From Eubacteriales bacterium (GTDB taxonomy: Bacteria; Bacillota; Clostridia; Oscillospirales; CAG-382), in the NCBI GenBank assembly GCA_045593165.1, contig JAZNWF010000004.1:216-64215 (forward strand): DNA of 64,000 nucleotides, written 5' to 3'. A program made the translations under genes and the position numbers. The notes under the pieces are model-generated. The model did not search any database and was not told the origin of the DNA. It saw only the letters and a list, made by a program, of their open reading frames with translations. Position 1 is the first letter of the stretch; the number at the start of each line of letters is the position of its first letter. Positions 18,788 through 25,713 of this stretch are shown piece after piece.

Positions 18788-19408
18788 TCAGGTATTCTTC
18801 ATTATAACCGATCCAACGCATTCACTTACGTGCTCGCAAGCGTCGGCACAGGATTCAAGGCAATCGAATACCTTACGCCAGGAAACTATTGCAAGAATAT
18901 CGTTGGATTCCTTTGTAAGATCACGCATTGAAGAGAGGTAAAGCTTGTCGCATTCCTCCTCGACGTCATTAAGCTCGATAATAAGCTCGTGTATCTTCTT
19001 GGACTTTTTGAAATTTTCAAACTCTCCCATAAGCGTGCAGAGAAGCTCGCAGGATTTTACGATATTTTTAGCAAACGCAACGGCAGAGGGATATACTGTC
19101 TGAATATTGTATATATAGAACTTCTGCAATATTTCTTCGATTTTATCGGTGACCTCGTCGAGATTATGGCTTAACATATCCAAATCCTCACGGTCGATGG
19201 GAGTTACGAACGCCTTTGCCAATGCTTCTGTCATTTCGTGCTTCTTGTTATCGGCGTTATGCTCGATAGCGTGCATTTCCTCAAGCATAGTCGTGATATT
19301 TTCGGGGTCGTAATTTTCAAGACATTTTACAAGATAGCATGCTGCCTGCTTGGAAAGCTCGGTGCTTGCAGAGAAGTTATCGAAATAGAATTTATCGCCC
19401 TTAGCCAT
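18788..19408 (-). CDS. DUF47 / PhoU-like putative phosphate transport regulator
   Basis: 206 aa, helical and acidic. It lies immediately downstream of the Pit transporter, which is the conserved pairing. Confidence 0.75.
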   Translation of the reverse strand: MAKGDKFYFDNFSASTELSKQAACYLVKCLENYDPENITTMLEEMHAIEHNADNKKHEMTEALAKAFVTPIDREDLDMLSHNLDEVTDKIEEILQKFYIYNIQTVYPSAVAFAKNIVKSCELLCTLMGEFENFKKSKKIHELIIELNDVEEECDKLYLSSMRDLTKESNDILAIVSWRKVFDCLESCADACEHVSECVGSVIMKNT

Positions 19409-19422
19409 TTTTTATTTTCCTT

Positions 19423-20484
19423 TCAAGTAAATATCATCATAAACAGTTTAGTCATCAAGAAGCCCACAAGTCCGCATCCGGGGAAGGTAAGCACCCAAGT
19501 GAATACCATTTCCTTAACCACGCCGAAGTTGATTGCAGAAACCCTCTTCACCGCGCCAACGCCCATAATAGACGTTGTCTTTGCGTGTGTGGTTGATACA
19601 GGCAAGCTGAATACCGAGCAGAACAGAAGCGACAATGCCGCCGCGATATCCGCCGAGAAGCCCTGATATTTTTCGAGCTTAACCATATCCATACCAACTG
19701 ATTTGATTATCTTTTTGCCGCCCATAGCAGTACCGAGTGCCATTACTACCGAGCAGAGAACCATAAGCCACATATATTCGCCTGCGATATCTATATCGGA
19801 GGGCAGGCTTTCACCCTTGGACATATACACGCAAAGCAGGATAACGCCCATAAACTTCTGACCGTCCTGCGCGCCGTGCATAAATGCCATCGATGCCGCA
19901 CCCGCGATCTGCGCACCCTTGAAGAAGGGTTCGGTTTTAGGTCGATTTGCTTTGTAGAATAGAATGGTAACCAATTTACAAACTATCCAACCCAAGCCAA
20001 AGCCGAGTGCAACCGAAATGCCGATACCGTATACGACCTTTATCCATTCGTCGCCGTTTACACCGCCCAAGCTGTTGTGAAGTGCTATGGCACTACCGGT
20101 AAGACCTGCGATCAGCGCGTGGCTTTCGCTGGTGGGAATACCGAACACCCAAGCAAGCGTTGCCCAAAGAACTATAGCAAACAACGCCGCGCTTAACGCG
20201 ATAATGGCTTTATCGGGGTCTGCGCCGAAATCCACCATTTTGGTTATCGTTTCGGCAACGGTAGCGTTGATGAGCGTCATTACGAAAACGCCCAAGAAAT
20301 TGAACACCGCCGCCATAAGTATTGCCGCCTTTGGTGGCATACACCTTGTTACGACACACGTTGCGATAGCATTGGGAGCATCCGTCCAACCGTTTACCAG
20401 AATTACGCCTAACGTCAGCGATACTGCGATAAACAGAAGCGGATTATCCGTCATTTGATTCCAAAATGCTAAAATAGAATCCAT
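19423..20484 (-). CDS. pit: Inorganic phosphate transporter, PiT family
   Basis: 353 aa polytopic membrane protein. The NGWTDAPNAIAT and GAQDGQKFMG motifs are typical of PitA/PHO4. Confidence 0.85.
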   Translation of the reverse strand: MDSILAFWNQMTDNPLLFIAVSLTLGVILVNGWTDAPNAIATCVVTRCMPPKAAILMAAVFNFLGVFVMTLINATVAETITKMVDFGADPDKAIIALSAALFAIVLWATLAWVFGIPTSESHALIAGLTGSAIALHNSLGGVNGDEWIKVVYGIGISVALGFGLGWIVCKLVTILFYKANRPKTEPFFKGAQIAGAASMAFMHGAQDGQKFMGVILLCVYMSKGESLPSDIDIAGEYMWLMVLCSVVMALGTAMGGKKIIKSVGMDMVKLEKYQGFSADIAAALSLLFCSVFSLPVSTTHAKTTSIMGVGAVKRVSAINFGVVKEMVFTWVLTFPGCGLVGFLMTKLFMMIFT

Positions 20485-20718: not shown

Positions 20719-22140
20719 TTAAAGATTATAATATCTTTCGAATTCGGCAGGATGAGGTATAGAAGCAAGCTGTCTGCATTCGTCACGCTTTGTCTTGATG
20801 AAATTGCGGATAAGCTCCTCGGGGAATACTCCGCCCTCGGTAAGATAAGCAAAATCCTTTTCTAAACAGTCGAGTGCCTCGTCAAGCGACACGGGAAGAC
20901 TCTGAAGCTTTGCCTTTTCCTCTTCGGGCAGGTTATAAAGGTTCATATCGTAGGGACCCCAGCCGTTTGCATGAGGATCGATCTTATTCTTTACACCGTC
21001 AAGCCCTGCCATAAGGATAGCCGCATAGCAGAAATAGGGGTTGCAGGTCGCATCGGGATTACGAAGCTCAAAGCGACGCTTATCGGGGCTCTTTGCATAT
21101 GCGGGAATACGAATAACCGCACTGCGATTGGAGGTTGCATAACCAACGGTTACGGGCGCTTCGAAGCCGGGCACCAAGCGCTTGAAGGAGTTGGTGCTGG
21201 GGTTGGTGATAGCACACAGTGAGCCGATATGCTTCAAAAGACCGCCGATGAAATAATGTGCGGTTTCGCTGAGATGCGAATAGCCGTTATCGTCGGAAAA
21301 TACAGGAACACCGTCCTTGAACAGAAGCATATGGACGTGCATACCGCTGCCTGCCTCACCGTATATGGGCTTTGGCATAAATGTTGCGCTCTTGCCGTAC
21401 TTAAGAGCGGTATTGTGAATGATATACTTTATCATCATCGTAGCGTCAGCCATATGAACGACCTCACCAAGCTGAGGTTCGATTTCGAACTGACCCGAAG
21501 CCGCAACCTCGGGATGATGGTAGTTTATTTCAATGCCTGCCTCTTTCATAAGAAGGCACATTTCACTACGGCATTCATAAGACGTATCGAACGGCTTTGC
21601 GATATGATAGTTCTTCTGCTTCGCAACTACAACACCGTGTCCCTCGTTATCGGAGTTCCAATAGGATTGCTTTGCATCTACGGTAGCACCGATATGCTTG
21701 CCGTCCACGTTCCAGGTAACGTTATCGAAAAGATAAAACTCAAATTCGGGCAATATCTTCATTTCGTCGGCAACGCCGCTGTTCTTCATATATTCTACAG
21801 CCGCTTTGATTATATTGCGGGGATATTGAGCTAAGGGACGGTTTTCGTGAGTATCGATTATCATCGCGTTGCCCGTCATAGAAAGCGTGGGAATATCGCA
21901 GAAGGGGTCGATGACCGCGGTATCGGGATCGGGGATAAAGACCATATCACTTTTTTCAACCACAGCGTAGCCATAGTTTGACGCGTCAAAGCCTATACCG
22001 CTTTTCATCGTATCCTCCGAAAAGTTTTCAGCAGGAATAGTAACGTGACGGTACTGACCGTTTATATCGACCATTTTAAAGTCGACCATTTTAATTCCGT
22101 TTTCTTTGATAAGGTTAAGAACATCGTGAACATTTGCCAT
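20719..22140 (-). CDS. glnA: Glutamine synthetase (type I)
   Basis: Start at MANVHDVLNL (ATG at 22140, RBS AGAGG). GS motifs are present: beta-grasp FKMVDINGQYRHVTIP, EVAASGQFEIE, GSGMHVHMLL, NPSTNSFKRLVPGFEAP. Confidence 0.9.
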   Translation of the reverse strand: MANVHDVLNLIKENGIKMVDFKMVDINGQYRHVTIPAENFSEDTMKSGIGFDASNYGYAVVEKSDMVFIPDPDTAVIDPFCDIPTLSMTGNAMIIDTHENRPLAQYPRNIIKAAVEYMKNSGVADEMKILPEFEFYLFDNVTWNVDGKHIGATVDAKQSYWNSDNEGHGVVVAKQKNYHIAKPFDTSYECRSEMCLLMKEAGIEINYHHPEVAASGQFEIEPQLGEVVHMADATMMIKYIIHNTALKYGKSATFMPKPIYGEAGSGMHVHMLLFKDGVPVFSDDNGYSHLSETAHYFIGGLLKHIGSLCAITNPSTNSFKRLVPGFEAPVTVGYATSNRSAVIRIPAYAKSPDKRRFELRNPDATCNPYFCYAAILMAGLDGVKNKIDPHANGWGPYDMNLYNLPEEEKAKLQSLPVSLDEALDCLEKDFAYLTEGGVFPEELIRNFIKTKRDECRQLASIPHPAEFERYYNL

Positions 22141-22267
22141 AGGCCTATACCTCTTTCGTTCGTTGTTATTAAAAATAATATAGCAAAAACCGTGTTGTCT
22201 TGTCAATATACTGATTAAAACATAATAAAAGCCTCGGTTTCACCGAGGCTTTTATGCATATTCTAAT

Positions 22268-22615
22268 TTAATCGTTTGTGCTTTCTTCGGTTTCCTCAAC
22301 CGCTCTGGCAAGTCCTGCCGCTGCGGATACGGGCATAGAAAATACCATTCCCTGCGCCTTTTGCTGCATACCCATTTTCTTATACAAAGCGTGAAGCACG
22401 TTATCTCGGATATCCTTTTCCACTACAAGCATAAGTATTTCCTTTTCGGCGTGGATGGTAATGCCGAAAAACGCCGCTTCCTTTTCCTTTGCAACGCCAC
22501 GTCCGCTGATAATAGTACCGCCGCGCGCGCCCTGCTCACGTGCTACCTGCATAGCATCCTCCGCGTAGCCCGCGTTTATAATAGCGAAAATTACTTCATA
22601 ATTATTCGTAGCCAT
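22268..22615 (-). CDS. P-II-like family protein
   Basis: 115 aa with a ferredoxin-like beta-alpha-beta repeat pattern (EVIFAIINAGYAEDAMQVAREQGARGGTIISGRG...). It is the last gene of a DUF1538-PII-PII operon. Confidence 0.6.
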   Translation of the reverse strand: MATNNYEVIFAIINAGYAEDAMQVAREQGARGGTIISGRGVAKEKEAAFFGITIHAEKEILMLVVEKDIRDNVLHALYKKMGMQQKAQGMVFSMPVSAAAGLARAVEETEESTND

Positions 22616-22617
22616 AA

Positions 22618-22986
22618 TTAATCCTCCCTGCCCTGCTTGTTATTGCTCAAGAACTGATACATATTTATACTGATAACACTTGAAAGCGGCACGGCTATTG
22701 CTATGCCCTTTCCGTTTCGAATGGTTTCGAATTTGTTCTCAAGACATTTTATGATAGGAGCAACCATATCCTCACGAACCACGCTCAGTATGACCGCCTT
22801 GTGTATGTTAAGGCCGAGCATATCTATTATATCGGAGGTTGCGGTGCCCTTGCCGCCCGTGACCATTTGAAAGTTCACCTCGAACTGACTGAAAATATCA
22901 AGATAGAACTCCGCTTTGGTTCGATCCACTACAGTGATTATAAGCTGCAGCTTCTTTATAGCCGACTCGTTAATTGTGTTTGCCAT
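22618..22986 (-). CDS. P-II-like family protein
   Basis: 122 aa with the same fold pattern (LQLIITVVDRTKAEFYLDIFSQFEVNFQMVTGGKGTA...). A 2-nt gap separates it from the next gene. Confidence 0.6.
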   Translation of the reverse strand: MANTINESAIKKLQLIITVVDRTKAEFYLDIFSQFEVNFQMVTGGKGTATSDIIDMLGLNIHKAVILSVVREDMVAPIIKCLENKFETIRNGKGIAIAVPLSSVISINMYQFLSNNKQGRED

Positions 22987-22997
22987 AGTCTGCCTCC

Positions 22998-24524
22998 TTA
23001 CATAAAATTGATGATATGCTCATCATCTTCAACCTGCAGGATTCGACGCATCGCACGTCTTTCCTTGATCTTATTTGAAACAACCGCCTTGAATCCGAGC
23101 AGCTGGATCGTAATAAGAGGAGCCATAGCAACCAAAGCAACCACACCGAAGCCGTCACGCAGTACCGCACTTTCGCCCTGCAGAGCCGCACATACACCGA
23201 TAGCAAACGGCAGAATGAAGCCCGAGGTCATAGGTCCGCTCGCCACGCCGCCCGAGTCAAACGCGATTGCGGTATAAACAGGCGGAACGAACAACGACAA
23301 CGCCAACGAAATGAAATAGCCCGGGATGATATAGTAAACCAAGGAAAAATCGTATACAATACGTATCACGCTTAACGCGATCGCTACACCTACGCCGGCA
23401 CACAAGCCCAGCATCATCGATTTTTTGCTGACGTAGCCGCCCGTTACATCTTCAACCTGTGCGTTAAGTACGTGGATCGCAGGCTCTGCCATAACGACCA
23501 GAACACCCATAAGGAATCCGAGGCCTATAAGCAAGCCTGTCGGCAAGGACGACAGCTGTGTTCCTATTTTATAACCAATGGGCATATAGCCGACATTAAC
23601 ACCCGTTAAGAATATAACCAATCCGATATAGGTAAAGACAACGCCGACACCTATCTTCATCAGATGTCTTTTTTTAAGCTTAAGGAAAAACACCTGACAA
23701 AGCAGGAAGAAAACGACAATAAGGCCGAGCGCGATAGCAACCTCTTTTGCCACGTGAAGTATATTTTCAAGATACACCTTTACTATATCCGTTTCGACCG
23801 CTCCGTAATTTACCGTATAGTTCAAATCGTTACGGGCAAATATTCCGAGCACCAAGACTGCAAGAATGGGACCTATCGAGCAAAGAGCTACAAGACCGAA
23901 GCTGTTTTCCTGACTGCGACGGTCGCCTAAAACCTTAGAGATACCGACGCCCAGCGCCATAATAAACGGAACGGTTATCGGACCCGTTGTTACACCGCCC
24001 GAATCGAATGCCATAGGAAGCAGGTCAATATTGCCGTTTATCGAAAGCATCAACGCCAAGGCGAACAAAAGCATATAGAACAGCATCAGAATATTGGATA
24101 GGCGGCGTTTGAAGACTATACGCAAAATAGCGATCACCAAAAACGTACCAACGCCAAATCCGACGGTATATATCAAAAGCTTTCCGTTCATAACCGAGCT
24201 TACCTGATTGGCAAGCACCTGCAGATCGGGCTCTGCAACGGTAATAAGCATACCGAGAACGAAGCACACAGCCAAAAGTAATCCGATAGATTTCTGCTTG
24301 GAAAGTCCCGAGCCGACGTGCACGCCCATAGGAGTCATCGCGATATCGGCACCGAGATTAAAGAATCCGATACCGAAAACCAGCAAGATTGCTCCTACCG
24401 TAAAGCTTATCATTTCATATTTATTAAAAGAAAATCCGGGAAGCAGTGCCATCAGATACACCAACAAGGTAATCGGCAATACCGAAACCAACGCTTCTCG
24501 AATCTTCGCAAATAATTCCTTCAA
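22998..24524 (-). CDS. DUF1538-type polytopic membrane protein (internally duplicated)
   Basis: 508 aa in two homologous halves, each with the motif AFDSGGV(T/A)(T/S)GP(I/M)T. There are about 12 TM helices. Confidence 0.65.
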   Translation of the reverse strand: MKELFAKIREALVSVLPITLLVYLMALLPGFSFNKYEMISFTVGAILLVFGIGFFNLGADIAMTPMGVHVGSGLSKQKSIGLLLAVCFVLGMLITVAEPDLQVLANQVSSVMNGKLLIYTVGFGVGTFLVIAILRIVFKRRLSNILMLFYMLLFALALMLSINGNIDLLPMAFDSGGVTTGPITVPFIMALGVGISKVLGDRRSQENSFGLVALCSIGPILAVLVLGIFARNDLNYTVNYGAVETDIVKVYLENILHVAKEVAIALGLIVVFFLLCQVFFLKLKKRHLMKIGVGVVFTYIGLVIFLTGVNVGYMPIGYKIGTQLSSLPTGLLIGLGFLMGVLVVMAEPAIHVLNAQVEDVTGGYVSKKSMMLGLCAGVGVAIALSVIRIVYDFSLVYYIIPGYFISLALSLFVPPVYTAIAFDSGGVASGPMTSGFILPFAIGVCAALQGESAVLRDGFGVVALVAMAPLITIQLLGFKAVVSNKIKERRAMRRILQVEDDEHIINFM

Positions 24525-24761
24525 TCCGCTTCACCGCCTGAAATAATCATACTACAACCATACAATTTAATGTATTTATGTGTACTGTTTTATTATAGCA
24601 TAAACCTATCACCCAAACAAGAAATATTTGCCTTGTTAACAATAAATTTACCGAGCCTTATCTTTTGAAAAATTGTGAGTTTTTACTAATAACGGTTGGA
24701 TCGAAACAGAAAAAACGCCCTTTCGGACGCTTTCTGTTTTAGTATATCTGCGATCAGTATA

Positions 24762-24790
24762 GAAAAAAGACACGGTGCGTGTCTTTTTAC
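24762..24790. terminator. Terminator downstream of ireB
   Basis: AGACACG / CGTGTCT stem flanked by A6 and T5. Confidence 0.7.
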
Positions 24791-24832
24791 ATTCGTCGTG
24801 AAAAATTCCTTATTCTACTGTTTGGTATACGA

Positions 24833-25048
24833 TTAATTGTCTGCCTTGAAATATACTTCAAGAATGCGATAGCTTATTTCTTCGACATCAAGCTTCGCAA
24901 TTAAATCGCGGGCATTGTTGTGAGGTGTTATGTAAGTGGGGTCATTTGTGAAAATATATCCCAATATCTGCGAAATAGGATTATATCCCTTTTCGGATAA
25001 TGCATCATATACGATTTTTAGAGTTTCATCGATGCTCAGATTATTCAT
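24833..25048 (-). CDS. ireB: IreB-family regulatory phosphoprotein (UPF0297/DUF965)
   Basis: 71 aa starting at MNNLSIDETLKIVYDALSEKGYNPISQILGYIFTNDPTYITPHNNARDLI, with RBS AGAGGA and promoter TTGAAA-17-TATACT just upstream. The longer tracked ORF (to 25339) crosses that promoter. Confidence 0.8.
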   Translation of the reverse strand: MNNLSIDETLKIVYDALSEKGYNPISQILGYIFTNDPTYITPHNNARDLIAKLDVEEISYRILEVYFKADN

Positions 25049-25154
25049 ATCCTCTGTTTTTGAAATAGACACGAGAAAGTGCTCCTTTGATTTGTATTTT
25101 AGTTTGTTCAGTATAACACATGGTTCGGTTCTTTTCAATAAAAATAAAATGATT

Positions 25155-25207
25155 CGCTCATCGGAATTATAACCGAATGTGGCAAGTCGACGCTTACCAC
25201 GAAAGCC
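25155..25207 (-). repeat. Copy A of a ~52-nt hairpin element
   Basis: Minus strand: GGCTTTCGTGGTAAGCGTCGACTTGCCACATTCGGTTATAATTCCGATGAGCG. About 80% identical to copy B at 26062-26113, in the same orientation. Confidence 0.6.
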
Positions 25208-25242
25208 AAGAAAACTCACCTTTGAGCGATTCATTCTAGAAT

Positions 25243-25713
25243 TTAACATAAAGAATAAACAGAGACTGCGAGAATAAATATTCCTATTGCAAGCAATGCT
25301 AATTCCGATAAGTGAACGCGACGAGCAAGTTTGATACAAGTGGGATTCTTTGCAGAAATATAAATGTCATATTTATCGCCCTCTTTATAATGCTTTAAGA
25401 CATATTTTTGAGACAATGATTCCCAACATGCTTGTCTATAGGATTTTCCCTGATAACTGTAAATAAAAATCGGAGAACTATGGAGATGACCCTTGAACTG
25501 ATAAAAACCATAATCAATCATTGTTGCAGATACCTTAATCTTACAACGATAAGTGATAATCATAATAGATATTGCTTCGTAACAAAAATAACTACCTACC
25601 GCAAATCCAATCACACTTTCTTTATATTGCGGCAAATGGTTTTCGAGAACAATTATAGCCACAACCGATAAAATCACCAATACCACAATAAAAATCAATC
25701 TATACTTCTTCAC
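25243..25713 (-). CDS. Membrane protein, DUF3592-like
   Basis: 156 aa with two N-terminal TM helices, one C-terminal TM helix and a central beta-rich domain (YSYQGKSYRQ...GDKYDIYISAKNP). Confidence 0.5.
   Translation of the reverse strand: MKKYRLIFIVVLVILSVVAIIVLENHLPQYKESVIGFAVGSYFCYEAISIMIITYRCKIKVSATMIDYGFYQFKGHLHSSPIFIYSYQGKSYRQACWESLSQKYVLKHYKEGDKYDIYISAKNPTCIKLARRVHLSELALLAIGIFILAVSVYSLC

What the first reader, a model, noticed from the sequence alone, without database searches (positions are those of the whole stretch)
20719..24524. DUF1538 membrane protein plus two divergent PII-like proteins immediately upstream of glnA
The operon order on the minus strand is DUF1538 (internally duplicated, each half carrying AFDSGGV(T/A)(T/S)GP), then PII-like 1, then PII-like 2. 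A terminator and the glnA promoter follow. PII-family proteins typically gate transporters, as GlnK does for AmtB and SbtB for SbtA. The adjacent uncharacterised polytopic protein is therefore a candidate transporter or channel regulated by a hetero-PII pair. The location next to glutamine synthetase hints at a nitrogen-related substrate. No amtB or glnB/K is visible in the window.
Basis: partly seen in the sequence, partly recalled or inferred. Interest (0 to 1): 0.55.

Follow-up and report, generated by a model that had tools for sequence, protein, structure and literature searches.

The report
DUF1538 transporter with paired PII-like regulators
This is a self-contained three-gene operon for a little-studied membrane transporter (related to a known sodium/proton exchanger) and two small PII-type sensor proteins that almost always travel with it; its position next to the glutamine synthetase gene is a coincidence of this genome, not a sign of a nitrogen role.

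Summary
On the minus strand lie a 508-aa fused double-DUF1538 membrane protein, a 122-aa and a 115-aa PII-like protein, then a terminator and a separate promoter for glnA.

The transporter-PII pairing is real and very strong. PII-like genes lie directly downstream of DUF1538 in 79 of 80 loci sampled across the phylum, in 80 of 80 closest relatives, in 9 of 9 Bacteroidota loci and on two alphaproteobacterial plasmids. Across 401 genomes the two families co-occur in 140, against 4 and 1 with only one of them.

The nitrogen reading fails. No glutamine synthetase gene lies near the module in any of 160 related loci, and glnA has its own promoter.

The family is not wholly uncharacterised: UmpAB of Halomonas is a published Na+(Li+,K+)/H+ antiporter. 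Charge bias shows two oppositely oriented 7-helix halves. The predicted fold has no clear solved relative.

Most likely this is a cation/proton exchanger gated by dedicated PII-like proteins that sense an unknown ligand. I found no paper describing the pairing. This scan has already reported the same module in at least 14 other genomes.

The parts
24592..24620 (-). Candidate promoter of the operon: TTGTTT, 17 nt, then an extended -10 (TGCTATAAT)
   Evidence: Read by eye. It lies after the two hairpin/T-run terminators that follow the upstream IreB gene. The consensus scan did not list it because the -35 hexamer matches only 3 of 6. This is an inference.
22998..24524 (-). Fused double-DUF1538 membrane protein (508 aa). 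The N half is UmpA-like and the C half UmpB-like. It is predicted to have 7+7 transmembrane helices with the halves in opposite orientation.
   Evidence: Pfam PF07556 at E 1e-127 in 2 stretches. NCBIfam UmpA 147 bits and UmpB 116 bits, both far below cut-off. AlphaFold pLDDT 90, pTM 0.87. K+R bias over 40 homologues. Halves 30% identical, E 2.6e-25.
22618..22986 (-). PII-like protein 1 (122 aa), the more divergent partner
   Evidence: No Pfam hit. hhalign against the PII-like 2 family gives 98.9%. The AlphaFold model matches GlnK1, CPII and PII folds. 7095 database clusters match it, and those listed are mostly unnamed.
22268..22615 (-). PII-like protein 2 (115 aa), a recognisable but atypical P-II family member
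   Evidence: Pfam P-II 28.2 bits against a 25-bit cut-off. Its profile hits solved PII chains (9p1x_H at 8e-7; GlnK/GlnB near 1e-3). It keeps G32, G33, T34, R39, K58 and G89, but lacks equivalents of K90, R101 and R103.
22225..22255 (-). Intrinsic terminator that ends the three-gene operon
   Evidence: 14-pair stem, 3-nt loop and a T-rich tail.
22177..22206 (-). Separate promoter of the neighbouring glnA gene (not part of the module)
   Evidence: TTGACA-18-TATATT, 11 of 12, with TG. glnA (TIGR00653, 527 bits) most likely starts at 22140.

Best explanation
The three genes form a self-contained operon for a regulated ion transporter.

The membrane protein is a single-chain version of the UmpA/UmpB pair. 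It has two homologous 7-helix halves inserted in opposite directions. Each half supplies a broken helix with the FDSGGV(T/A)(T/S)GP motif and an AEP(D/A) motif, which are the likely ion-binding core. It most likely exchanges a monovalent cation (Na+, K+ or Li+) for protons.

The two PII-like proteins are paralogues dedicated to this transporter. Most likely they assemble into a PII-type oligomer on its cytoplasmic face. They would then open or block it through their conserved T-loops according to a small-molecule signal, probably an adenine nucleotide or a second messenger, as GlnK does for AmtB and SbtB for SbtA.

The neighbouring glnA gene is an independent transcription unit and has no functional tie to the module.

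Shown here: the gene structure, the homologies, the near-obligatory linkage and co-occurrence, the opposite charge bias of the halves, and the non-conservation of glnA linkage. Inferred: physical binding, gating, the ligand and the substrate.
For: - Linkage: PII-like genes lie directly downstream on the same strand in 79 of 80 phylum-wide loci and in 80 of 80 closest relatives (77 with both PII genes, 3 cut by a contig end). The same holds in 9 of 9 Bacteroidota loci and on Chelativorans and Methylocystis plasmids. The single unlinked case keeps a tandem PII gene elsewhere in its genome.
- Co-occurrence in the same 401 genomes: 140 have both families, 4 have DUF1538 only (weak, partial or contig-end matches) and 1 has the PII type only.
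- No other conserved neighbour: the largest other gene cluster is an ABC ATPase in 18 of 160 loci.
- The partner comes as one PII domain, two genes, a tandem fusion or a triple fusion. This fits an oligomeric PII body.
- T-loop residues are among the few invariant positions: G47 and T48 (invariant) and L57 and G58 (at least 90%) in protein 1; R39, G40 and F50 (at least 90%) in protein 2.
- Transporter nature: UmpAB has published Na+(Li+,K+)/H+ antiport activity (PMC5484666). E98, E347 and D423 are invariant, D174 nearly so, and R135 is invariant.
- Topology: K+R bias is opposite in the two halves, both in 40 fused proteins and in 29 split pairs.
- glnA: 0 of 160 loci carry a GS gene, and a terminator plus promoter lie between the operon and glnA.
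Against: - No experiment or complex model shows that the PII-like proteins bind the transporter. The structure tool predicts single chains only.
- UmpAB showed antiport activity in E. coli without any PII partner, so the partner is not needed for basal activity.
- The window protein scores far below the UmpA/UmpB equivalog cut-offs (147 against 490 bits and 116 against 500), so the substrate may differ.
- The UmpAB assignment rests on one complementation and vesicle study.
- PII-like 2 lacks equivalents of K90, R101 and R103 and has Gly in place of Q39. These are the canonical ATP/2-oxoglutarate contacts, so the ligand cannot be read from the sequence.
- No riboswitch or other ligand clue lies upstream, in the window or in 15 relatives.
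- No DUF1538-PII fusion protein was seen among the best 150 representatives or the best 120 longer homologues.
Confidence: 0.55

Rival explanations
1. One reading: a transporter or channel for a nitrogen compound (ammonium, glutamine or another amino acid), gated by a hetero-PII pair and functionally tied to the adjacent glutamine synthetase.
For: The module sits 130 bp upstream of glnA on the same strand. The assembled 74% of the genome has no AmtB and no other P-II family match, so these would be the cell's only PII-type proteins.
Against: A GS homologue is absent from all 160 related loci, including relatives 72-88% identical. There is no synteny of the flanks. A terminator and a near-consensus promoter separate the units. 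PII-like 2 lacks the canonical 2-oxoglutarate/ATP contacts. The one characterised family member moves alkali cations.
Confidence: 0.06
2. Same architecture but a different substrate. The DUF1538 protein of this clade would carry something other than Na+/K+/Li+ against H+, for example bicarbonate or another anion, a divalent metal or a small metabolite, with the PII-like proteins sensing the matching metabolic signal (as with SbtA/SbtB or the CPII-associated transporters).
For: The match to the UmpA/UmpB equivalog models is far below cut-off. CPII, which binds ADP/AMP and bicarbonate, is among the best fold matches of PII-like 1. The transporter fold has no clear solved relative that would fix a substrate class. 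P-type metal ATPases appear near 8 of 160 loci.
Against: The motif-bearing core (AEP, FDSGGV..GP, invariant acidic residues) is shared across the whole family, including the UmpA/UmpB models, which argues for a common ion-coupling chemistry. No neighbour is recurrent enough to point to another substrate. No riboswitch was found.
Confidence: 0.2
3. The PII-like proteins are not gates of the transporter. Either the membrane protein acts as a membrane anchor or sensor that sequesters them so that they control other cytoplasmic targets (as AmtB-bound GlnK controls DraG), or they are structural or assembly subunits with no ligand sensing.
For: UmpAB worked without a PII partner in E. coli. The canonical effector-binding residues are partly missing. 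One genome keeps the PII gene unlinked.
Against: The PII type is found almost only in genomes that carry DUF1538 (140 of 141). No third conserved partner gene exists. This fits a closed two-component system better than a relay to other targets. The conserved glycine-rich loops and K58 suggest that a ligand site persists.
Confidence: 0.14

Closest known systems
UmpAB, the two-component Na+(Li+,K+)/H+ antiporter of Halomonas zhaodongensis (DUF1538, PF07556; NCBIfam NF041627/NF041628; PMC5484666)
   Same: Same Pfam family. The N half aligns to UmpA over nearly its full length and the C half to UmpB. Both have two homologous 7-helix units that work as a pair.
   Different: Here the two units are fused into one chain. 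Scores are far below the equivalog cut-offs (147 against 490 and 116 against 500 bits), so it is a distant paralogue or orthologue of unknown substrate. The UmpAB paper never mentions P-II (0 occurrences), and its cloned fragment ended at umpB. I could not check whether Halomonas carries a PII gene downstream.
GlnK-AmtB (PII protein plugging the ammonium channel)
   Same: A small PII-fold protein encoded beside, and dedicated to, a membrane transport protein. The T-loop is conserved.
   Different: The membrane partner is a different family. No Ammonium_transp domain is found in the genome. The canonical ATP/2-oxoglutarate contacts K90, R101, R103 and Q39 are not kept. There are two different PII paralogues instead of one homotrimer.
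SbtB-SbtA (PII-like protein locking the Na+/bicarbonate symporter; binds adenine nucleotides, cAMP and c-di-AMP)
   Same: A PII-like regulator of an ion-coupled secondary transporter built from inverted repeats, responding to nucleotides rather than to nitrogen status. This is the best functional analogy.
   Different: There is essentially no sequence relationship (SbtB E about 0.9 to the PII-like 2 profile). The DUF1538 model shows no clear structural match to any solved transporter.
NifI1/NifI2 (a heteromeric pair of PII paralogues regulating nitrogenase; from my own knowledge of Dodsworth and Leigh 2006, which appears in a reference list seen)
   Same: A precedent for two different PII paralogues, encoded side by side, acting together as one hetero-oligomer.
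   Different: The target there is a soluble enzyme, not a membrane protein. No nitrogenase genes were seen among the neighbours examined.
CPII (carboxysome-associated PII-like protein binding ADP/AMP and bicarbonate, PDB 5d4n/5d4o)
   Same: Among the best fold matches of PII-like 1. It is a PII-like protein that has left nitrogen signalling.
   Different: Different gene context, and a fold-level resemblance only (16-20% identity).

Membership tests
DUF1538 (Pfam PF07556) | Match to the family profile above the gathering score | tested here: met
   424 bits against a 22.6-bit cut-off, two full-length stretches.
UmpA/UmpB Na,Li,K/H+ antiporter equivalogs (NCBIfam NF041627, NF041628) | Score at or above the curated equivalog cut-off | tested here: not met
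   147.4 against 490 bits and 116.2 against 500 bits. It is homologous, but not an equivalog.
UmpA/UmpB Na,Li,K/H+ antiporter equivalogs (NCBIfam NF041627, NF041628) | Cation/proton antiport activity | not testable with these tools
   Needs vesicle or complementation assays.
P-II family (Pfam PF00543) | Match to the profile above the gathering score (PII-like 2) | tested here: met
   28.2 bits against 25. The family profile hits solved PII chains at 8e-7 to 1e-3.
P-II family (Pfam PF00543) | Match to the profile above the gathering score (PII-like 1) | tested here: not met
   No Pfam hit. Membership of the wider PII superfamily rests on hhalign at 98.9% to the PII-like 2 family and on fold matches to GlnK1, CPII and PII.
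Canonical GlnB/GlnK | ATP/2-oxoglutarate site residues (Q39, K58, G87-K90, R101, R103 in E. coli numbering) | tested here: not met
   PII-like 2 keeps K58, G89 and R39 (equivalent to R38). It has GQGIAF in place of GDGKIF, no C-terminal arginines, and Gly at the Q39 position. In the PII-like 1 alignment, only a basic residue at the K58 position and GKG in the B-loop region remain recognisable.
GlnK-AmtB system | Adjacent or co-resident ammonium transporter (PF00909) | tested here: not met
   No PF00909 match in the 73.6%-complete genome. The controls matched in 14 of 14 genomes.
SbtA-SbtB system | Sequence or fold relationship of the membrane protein to SbtA and of the PII-like protein to SbtB | tested here: inconclusive
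   SbtB scores E 0.9 to the PII-like 2 profile. No SbtA chain appears among the fold matches, but the whole 508-residue model was searched, not single domains.
Antiparallel (inverted-repeat) two-unit transporters | Homologous units with opposite positive-inside bias | tested here: met
   Fused proteins (n=40). In half 1 the N-terminus and loops 2-3, 4-5 and 6-7 carry 3.0, 2.1, 2.3 and 2.3 K+R, against 0.1 in each of the alternate loops. In half 2, loop 1-2 carries 4.0 and the C-terminus 4.3. The 29 split pairs show the same pattern. This is a prediction from sequence, not a structure.

The most novel reading that the evidence does not exclude
DUF1538 proteins are a widespread class of secondary ion transporters with a 7+7 inverted-repeat fold that has no solved relative. 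Their activity would be controlled by an obligatory, family-specific branch of the PII superfamily, present as one, two or three domains per chain, that senses a signal unrelated to nitrogen (energy charge or a cyclic nucleotide). That would make this a third major PII-transporter partnership beside GlnK-AmtB and SbtB-SbtA, and the first with a heteromeric PII body docking on an asymmetric, antiparallel transporter face.
Probability: 0.4. Interest if true: 0.7.

Novelty: new variant of a known kind. Interest (0 to 1): 0.5.

Why it matters
PII proteins are among the most widespread signal processors in biology, yet only a few of their membrane targets are understood. The DUF1538-PII module is present in about a third of the genomes sampled in this phylum (144 of 401). 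It also occurs in Bacteroidota and in Proteobacteria, and the PII branch alone counts some 3500 sequence clusters at 50% identity.

I found no paper that mentions the pairing: all 6 papers naming DUF1538 and all 10 naming UmpAB are silent on P-II. Working it out would add a new regulated ion-transport system, probably relevant to salt, pH or energy homeostasis in gut anaerobes. It would also add a new transporter fold and a new ligand-response type in the PII superfamily.

For genome annotation the practical points are two. 'P-II family nitrogen regulator' is a misleading name for these genes. And adjacency to glnA here should not be read as a nitrogen function.

Tried and rejected
- Rfam: the gathering scan of the whole window and the E-value scan of 22100-24900 found no riboswitch or leader for the operon. 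In 15 related loci the only riboswitch was a c-di-AMP element about 3.5 kb downstream of one module, so unrelated.
- Fold searches of the DUF1538 model: Foldseek against the PDB gave a best E of 0.025 with TM below 0.2. VIA-align against 48,161 chains gave a best Z of 7.2, on helical bundles within the noise range. This does not prove a new fold.
- Sequence search of DUF1538 against PDB chains: no hit.
- ESM Atlas search excluding PF07556: no usable hit.
- Search for DUF1538-PII fusion proteins: none among the best 120 longer homologues or the best 150 representatives. Only tandem and triple PII chains appeared.
Only two alphaproteobacterial plasmids could be checked, and both have the PII gene.
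- Identity of PDB 9p1x, the best sequence match of PII-like 2: a literature search for the code gave only noise, so I make no claim about it.
- Search for other conserved neighbours that might hint at the substrate: none.
- Literature searches for PII-like with antiporter, and for PII superfamily with genomic context, found nothing on this pairing.
Full report
**What is in the window.** On the minus strand, after two hairpin/T-run terminators that follow an IreB-family gene, lies a three-gene cluster.
- A 508-aa membrane protein at 22998-24524, with a TTG start behind GGCGGTGA.
- A 122-aa protein at 22618-22986, starting 11 nt after the first gene's stop and behind GGAGG.
- A 115-aa protein at 22268-22615, starting 2 nt after the second gene's stop.

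A 14-pair hairpin with a T-rich tail (22255-22225) follows. After it comes a near-consensus promoter, TTGACA-18-TATATT with TG, at 22206-22177. glnA then follows (TIGR00653, 527 bits). Its real start is most likely the ATG at 22140, not the TTG at 22206. The finding therefore spans two transcription units. Rfam finds no structured RNA in or before the operon.

**The membrane protein.** It matches DUF1538 (PF07556) at E 1e-127 in two full-length stretches. NCBIfam aligns its N half to UmpA and its C half to UmpB, the subunits of the Halomonas Na+(Li+,K+)/H+ antiporter. The scores (147 and 116 bits) are far below the equivalog cut-offs of 490 and 500.

The halves are 30% identical (E 2.6e-25). 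An alignment of 40 fused homologues (A1) shows invariant E98-P99 and E347-P348 (the AEP motifs). D423 and G425 are invariant and D174 nearly so (the FDSGGV..GP motifs). R135 is also invariant. Buried acidic residues at matching positions in both halves fit an ion-coupled carrier.

The AlphaFold model is confident (pLDDT 90, pTM 0.87). It shows the motif regions as breaks between short helices.

Counting lysine plus arginine per loop over the 40 proteins gives opposite patterns in the two halves.
- Half 1: the positive segments are the N-terminus and loops 2-3, 4-5 and 6-7 (3.0, 2.1, 2.3 and 2.3, against 0.1 in each alternate loop).
- Half 2: the positive segments are loop 1-2 (4.0) and the C-terminus (4.3).

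The same opposite bias holds for 29 split gene pairs. The protein is thus most likely a 7+7-helix inverted repeat, and the split forms are antiparallel heterodimers.

No solved structure resembles the model convincingly (Foldseek best E 0.025 with TM below 0.2; VIA-align best Z 7.2). Because only the whole 508-residue model was searched, this is not proof of a new fold.

**The two small proteins.**
- PII-like 2 passes the Pfam P-II threshold narrowly (28.2 against 25 bits). Its family profile (A3) hits solved PII chains.
- PII-like 1 has no Pfam hit. Its family profile (A2) matches A3 by hhalign at 98.9% (E 1e-17). Its model has the PII beta-alpha-beta-beta-alpha-beta fold, with GlnK1, CPII and PII as the best matches.

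Both families have strongly conserved T-loop regions (G47 and T48 invariant, L57 and G58 at least 90% conserved, in protein 1; R39, G40 and F50 at least 90% conserved in protein 2). Both keep a basic residue at the K58 position. PII-like 2 has GQGIAF where canonical PII has GDGKIF, and it lacks the C-terminal arginines. They are therefore PII-superfamily proteins whose effector cannot be assumed to be ATP plus 2-oxoglutarate.

**Is the linkage real?** I fetched about 12-14 kb around 80 DUF1538 loci, one from each of 80 of the 144 positive genomes among 401 sampled in the phylum.
- In 79 of them, PII-like genes lie directly downstream on the same strand.
- The exception (L081) has a convergent murB-like gene there, but keeps a tandem PII gene on another contig.
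- The 80 closest relatives in the species-genome collection are 49-88% identical and come from Faecousia, Oscillospiraceae, Christensenellales-type and other gut MAGs. All have DUF1538 followed by PII-like 1. 77 also have PII-like 2, and the other 3 are cut by a contig end.
- In Bacteroidota the family is rare (9 of 301 genomes), but 9 of 9 loci have the partner.
- Two alphaproteobacterial plasmids carry DUF1538, DUF1538 and P-II in a row.

In the same 401 genomes, 144 have DUF1538 and 141 have the PII-like 2 type at E no greater than 1e-12. 140 have both. The 4 with DUF1538 only have weak, partial or contig-end matches, and the single genome with the PII type only is 79% complete. Related genomes are not independent, so I give no P-value, but the pattern is that of an obligatory pair. 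No other gene recurs beside the module.

**Forms of the partner.** Among the 80 phylum-wide loci the partner takes several forms.
- About 14 loci have a single PII domain. All of these go with split DUF1538 genes, apart from one fused-gene locus cut by a contig end.
- 9 have two separate P2-type PII genes and 7 have the window's arrangement of PII-like 1 followed by PII-like 2.
- 49 have a tandem fusion of 215-270 aa.

Where there are two domains, the first is always the more divergent. Two Bacteroidota genomes have three PII domains in one 380-aa chain. The 50%-identity representative library also holds triple forms of 304-357 aa. A triple chain suggests one PII-type trimer per transporter unit. 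How a two-type pair fills a trimer is open. No DUF1538-PII fusion was seen.

**The glnA question.** A glutamine synthetase homologue was sought in all 160 related loci at E up to 1 and found in none. 124 loci have at least 1.6 kb downstream and 133 at least 1.6 kb upstream. None of the window's other flanking genes (PHO4, PhoU-like, IreB, DUF362 and others) is syntenic either. Together with the terminator and the separate promoter, this shows that the adjacency is incidental.

The assembled genome (73.6% complete) has no AmtB and no other P-II match. That is worth noting, but it does not create a nitrogen link.

**Mechanism proposed.** The module is a cation/proton exchanger of the UmpAB type whose cytoplasmic face is occupied by a dedicated PII-like oligomer. 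Ligand-dependent T-loop movements would open or block transport. The closest working analogy is SbtB-SbtA, and NifI1/NifI2 is the precedent for a hetero-PII pair. My rough confidences are:
- the genes form one functional unit: about 0.85;
- the PII-like proteins physically gate the transporter: about 0.6;
- the substrate is Na+, K+ or Li+ against H+: about 0.4.

**Literature and earlier notes.** All 6 papers naming DUF1538 and all 10 naming UmpAB say nothing about P-II. Searches for PII-like with antiporter or with genomic context found nothing on this pairing. The library lacks most subscription journals.

This scan has already reported the same module in at least 14 other genomes, with the same conclusion. 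Some of those notes describe a CBS-pair protein as a further partner in other phyla. One (e1-4387501) notes GS genes nearby in another genome, which I could not examine.

**Limits.**
- No multimer prediction was available.
- The Halomonas umpAB neighbourhood could not be checked.

Noticed in passing
window 20719-22206: The glnA ORF as listed (495 aa, TTG start) is over-extended. The TIGR00653 alignment starts at residue 28, and an ATG at 22140 lies behind AAAGAGG and downstream of the TTGACA-18-TATATT promoter, giving about 473 aa.
   Followed up: partly
window 18788-20484: Directly downstream of glnA on the same strand lie a PHO4/PitA-type phosphate transporter (353 aa) and a PhoU_div (DUF47) protein (206 aa), a known transporter-regulator pairing.
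   Followed up: no
whole genome G000: The 73.6%-complete assembly has no ammonium transporter (PF00909) and no P-II family match other than PII-like 2 of this operon. The organism may lack the classical GlnK-AmtB system.
   Followed up: partly
window 24833-25339: The IreB-family ORF (168 aa) matches the 78-position IreB model only at residues 94-164, so the listed ORF is probably over-extended at its 5' end. Two hairpin/T-run terminators follow it at about 24700-24800.
   Followed up: no
L212:2247-3389 and L213:2247-3389: Two Bacteroidota genomes encode a 380-aa protein with three PII-like domains in one chain, directly after a 626-aa fused DUF1538 gene: a covalent pseudo-trimer.
   Followed up: partly
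L140 (Candidatus Scatosoma MAG): The module appears twice as a perfect-looking inverted pair (D-P1-P2 then P2-P1-D on the other strand, with identical ORF lengths and 78 nt between). This could be a real inverted duplication or a palindromic assembly artefact.
   Followed up: no
L070, L073, L084: Some genomes carry two complete DUF1538-PII modules in tandem on one strand, 114-193 nt apart.
   Followed up: no
L173/L202 (Bacteroidales MAG, G403): The DUF1538 reading frame is open for about 1600 codons upstream. This may be an ORF-extension artefact or an N-terminal fusion to another protein.
   Followed up: no
one search hit list: Named tandem-PII relatives come notably often from halophilic or alkaliphilic Bacillaceae (Halobacillus, Salinibacillus, Virgibacillus, Halalkalibacter, Anaerobacillus alkaliphilus). 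This would fit a Na+/H+ role, but it is only an impression from a list ranked by score.
   Followed up: no
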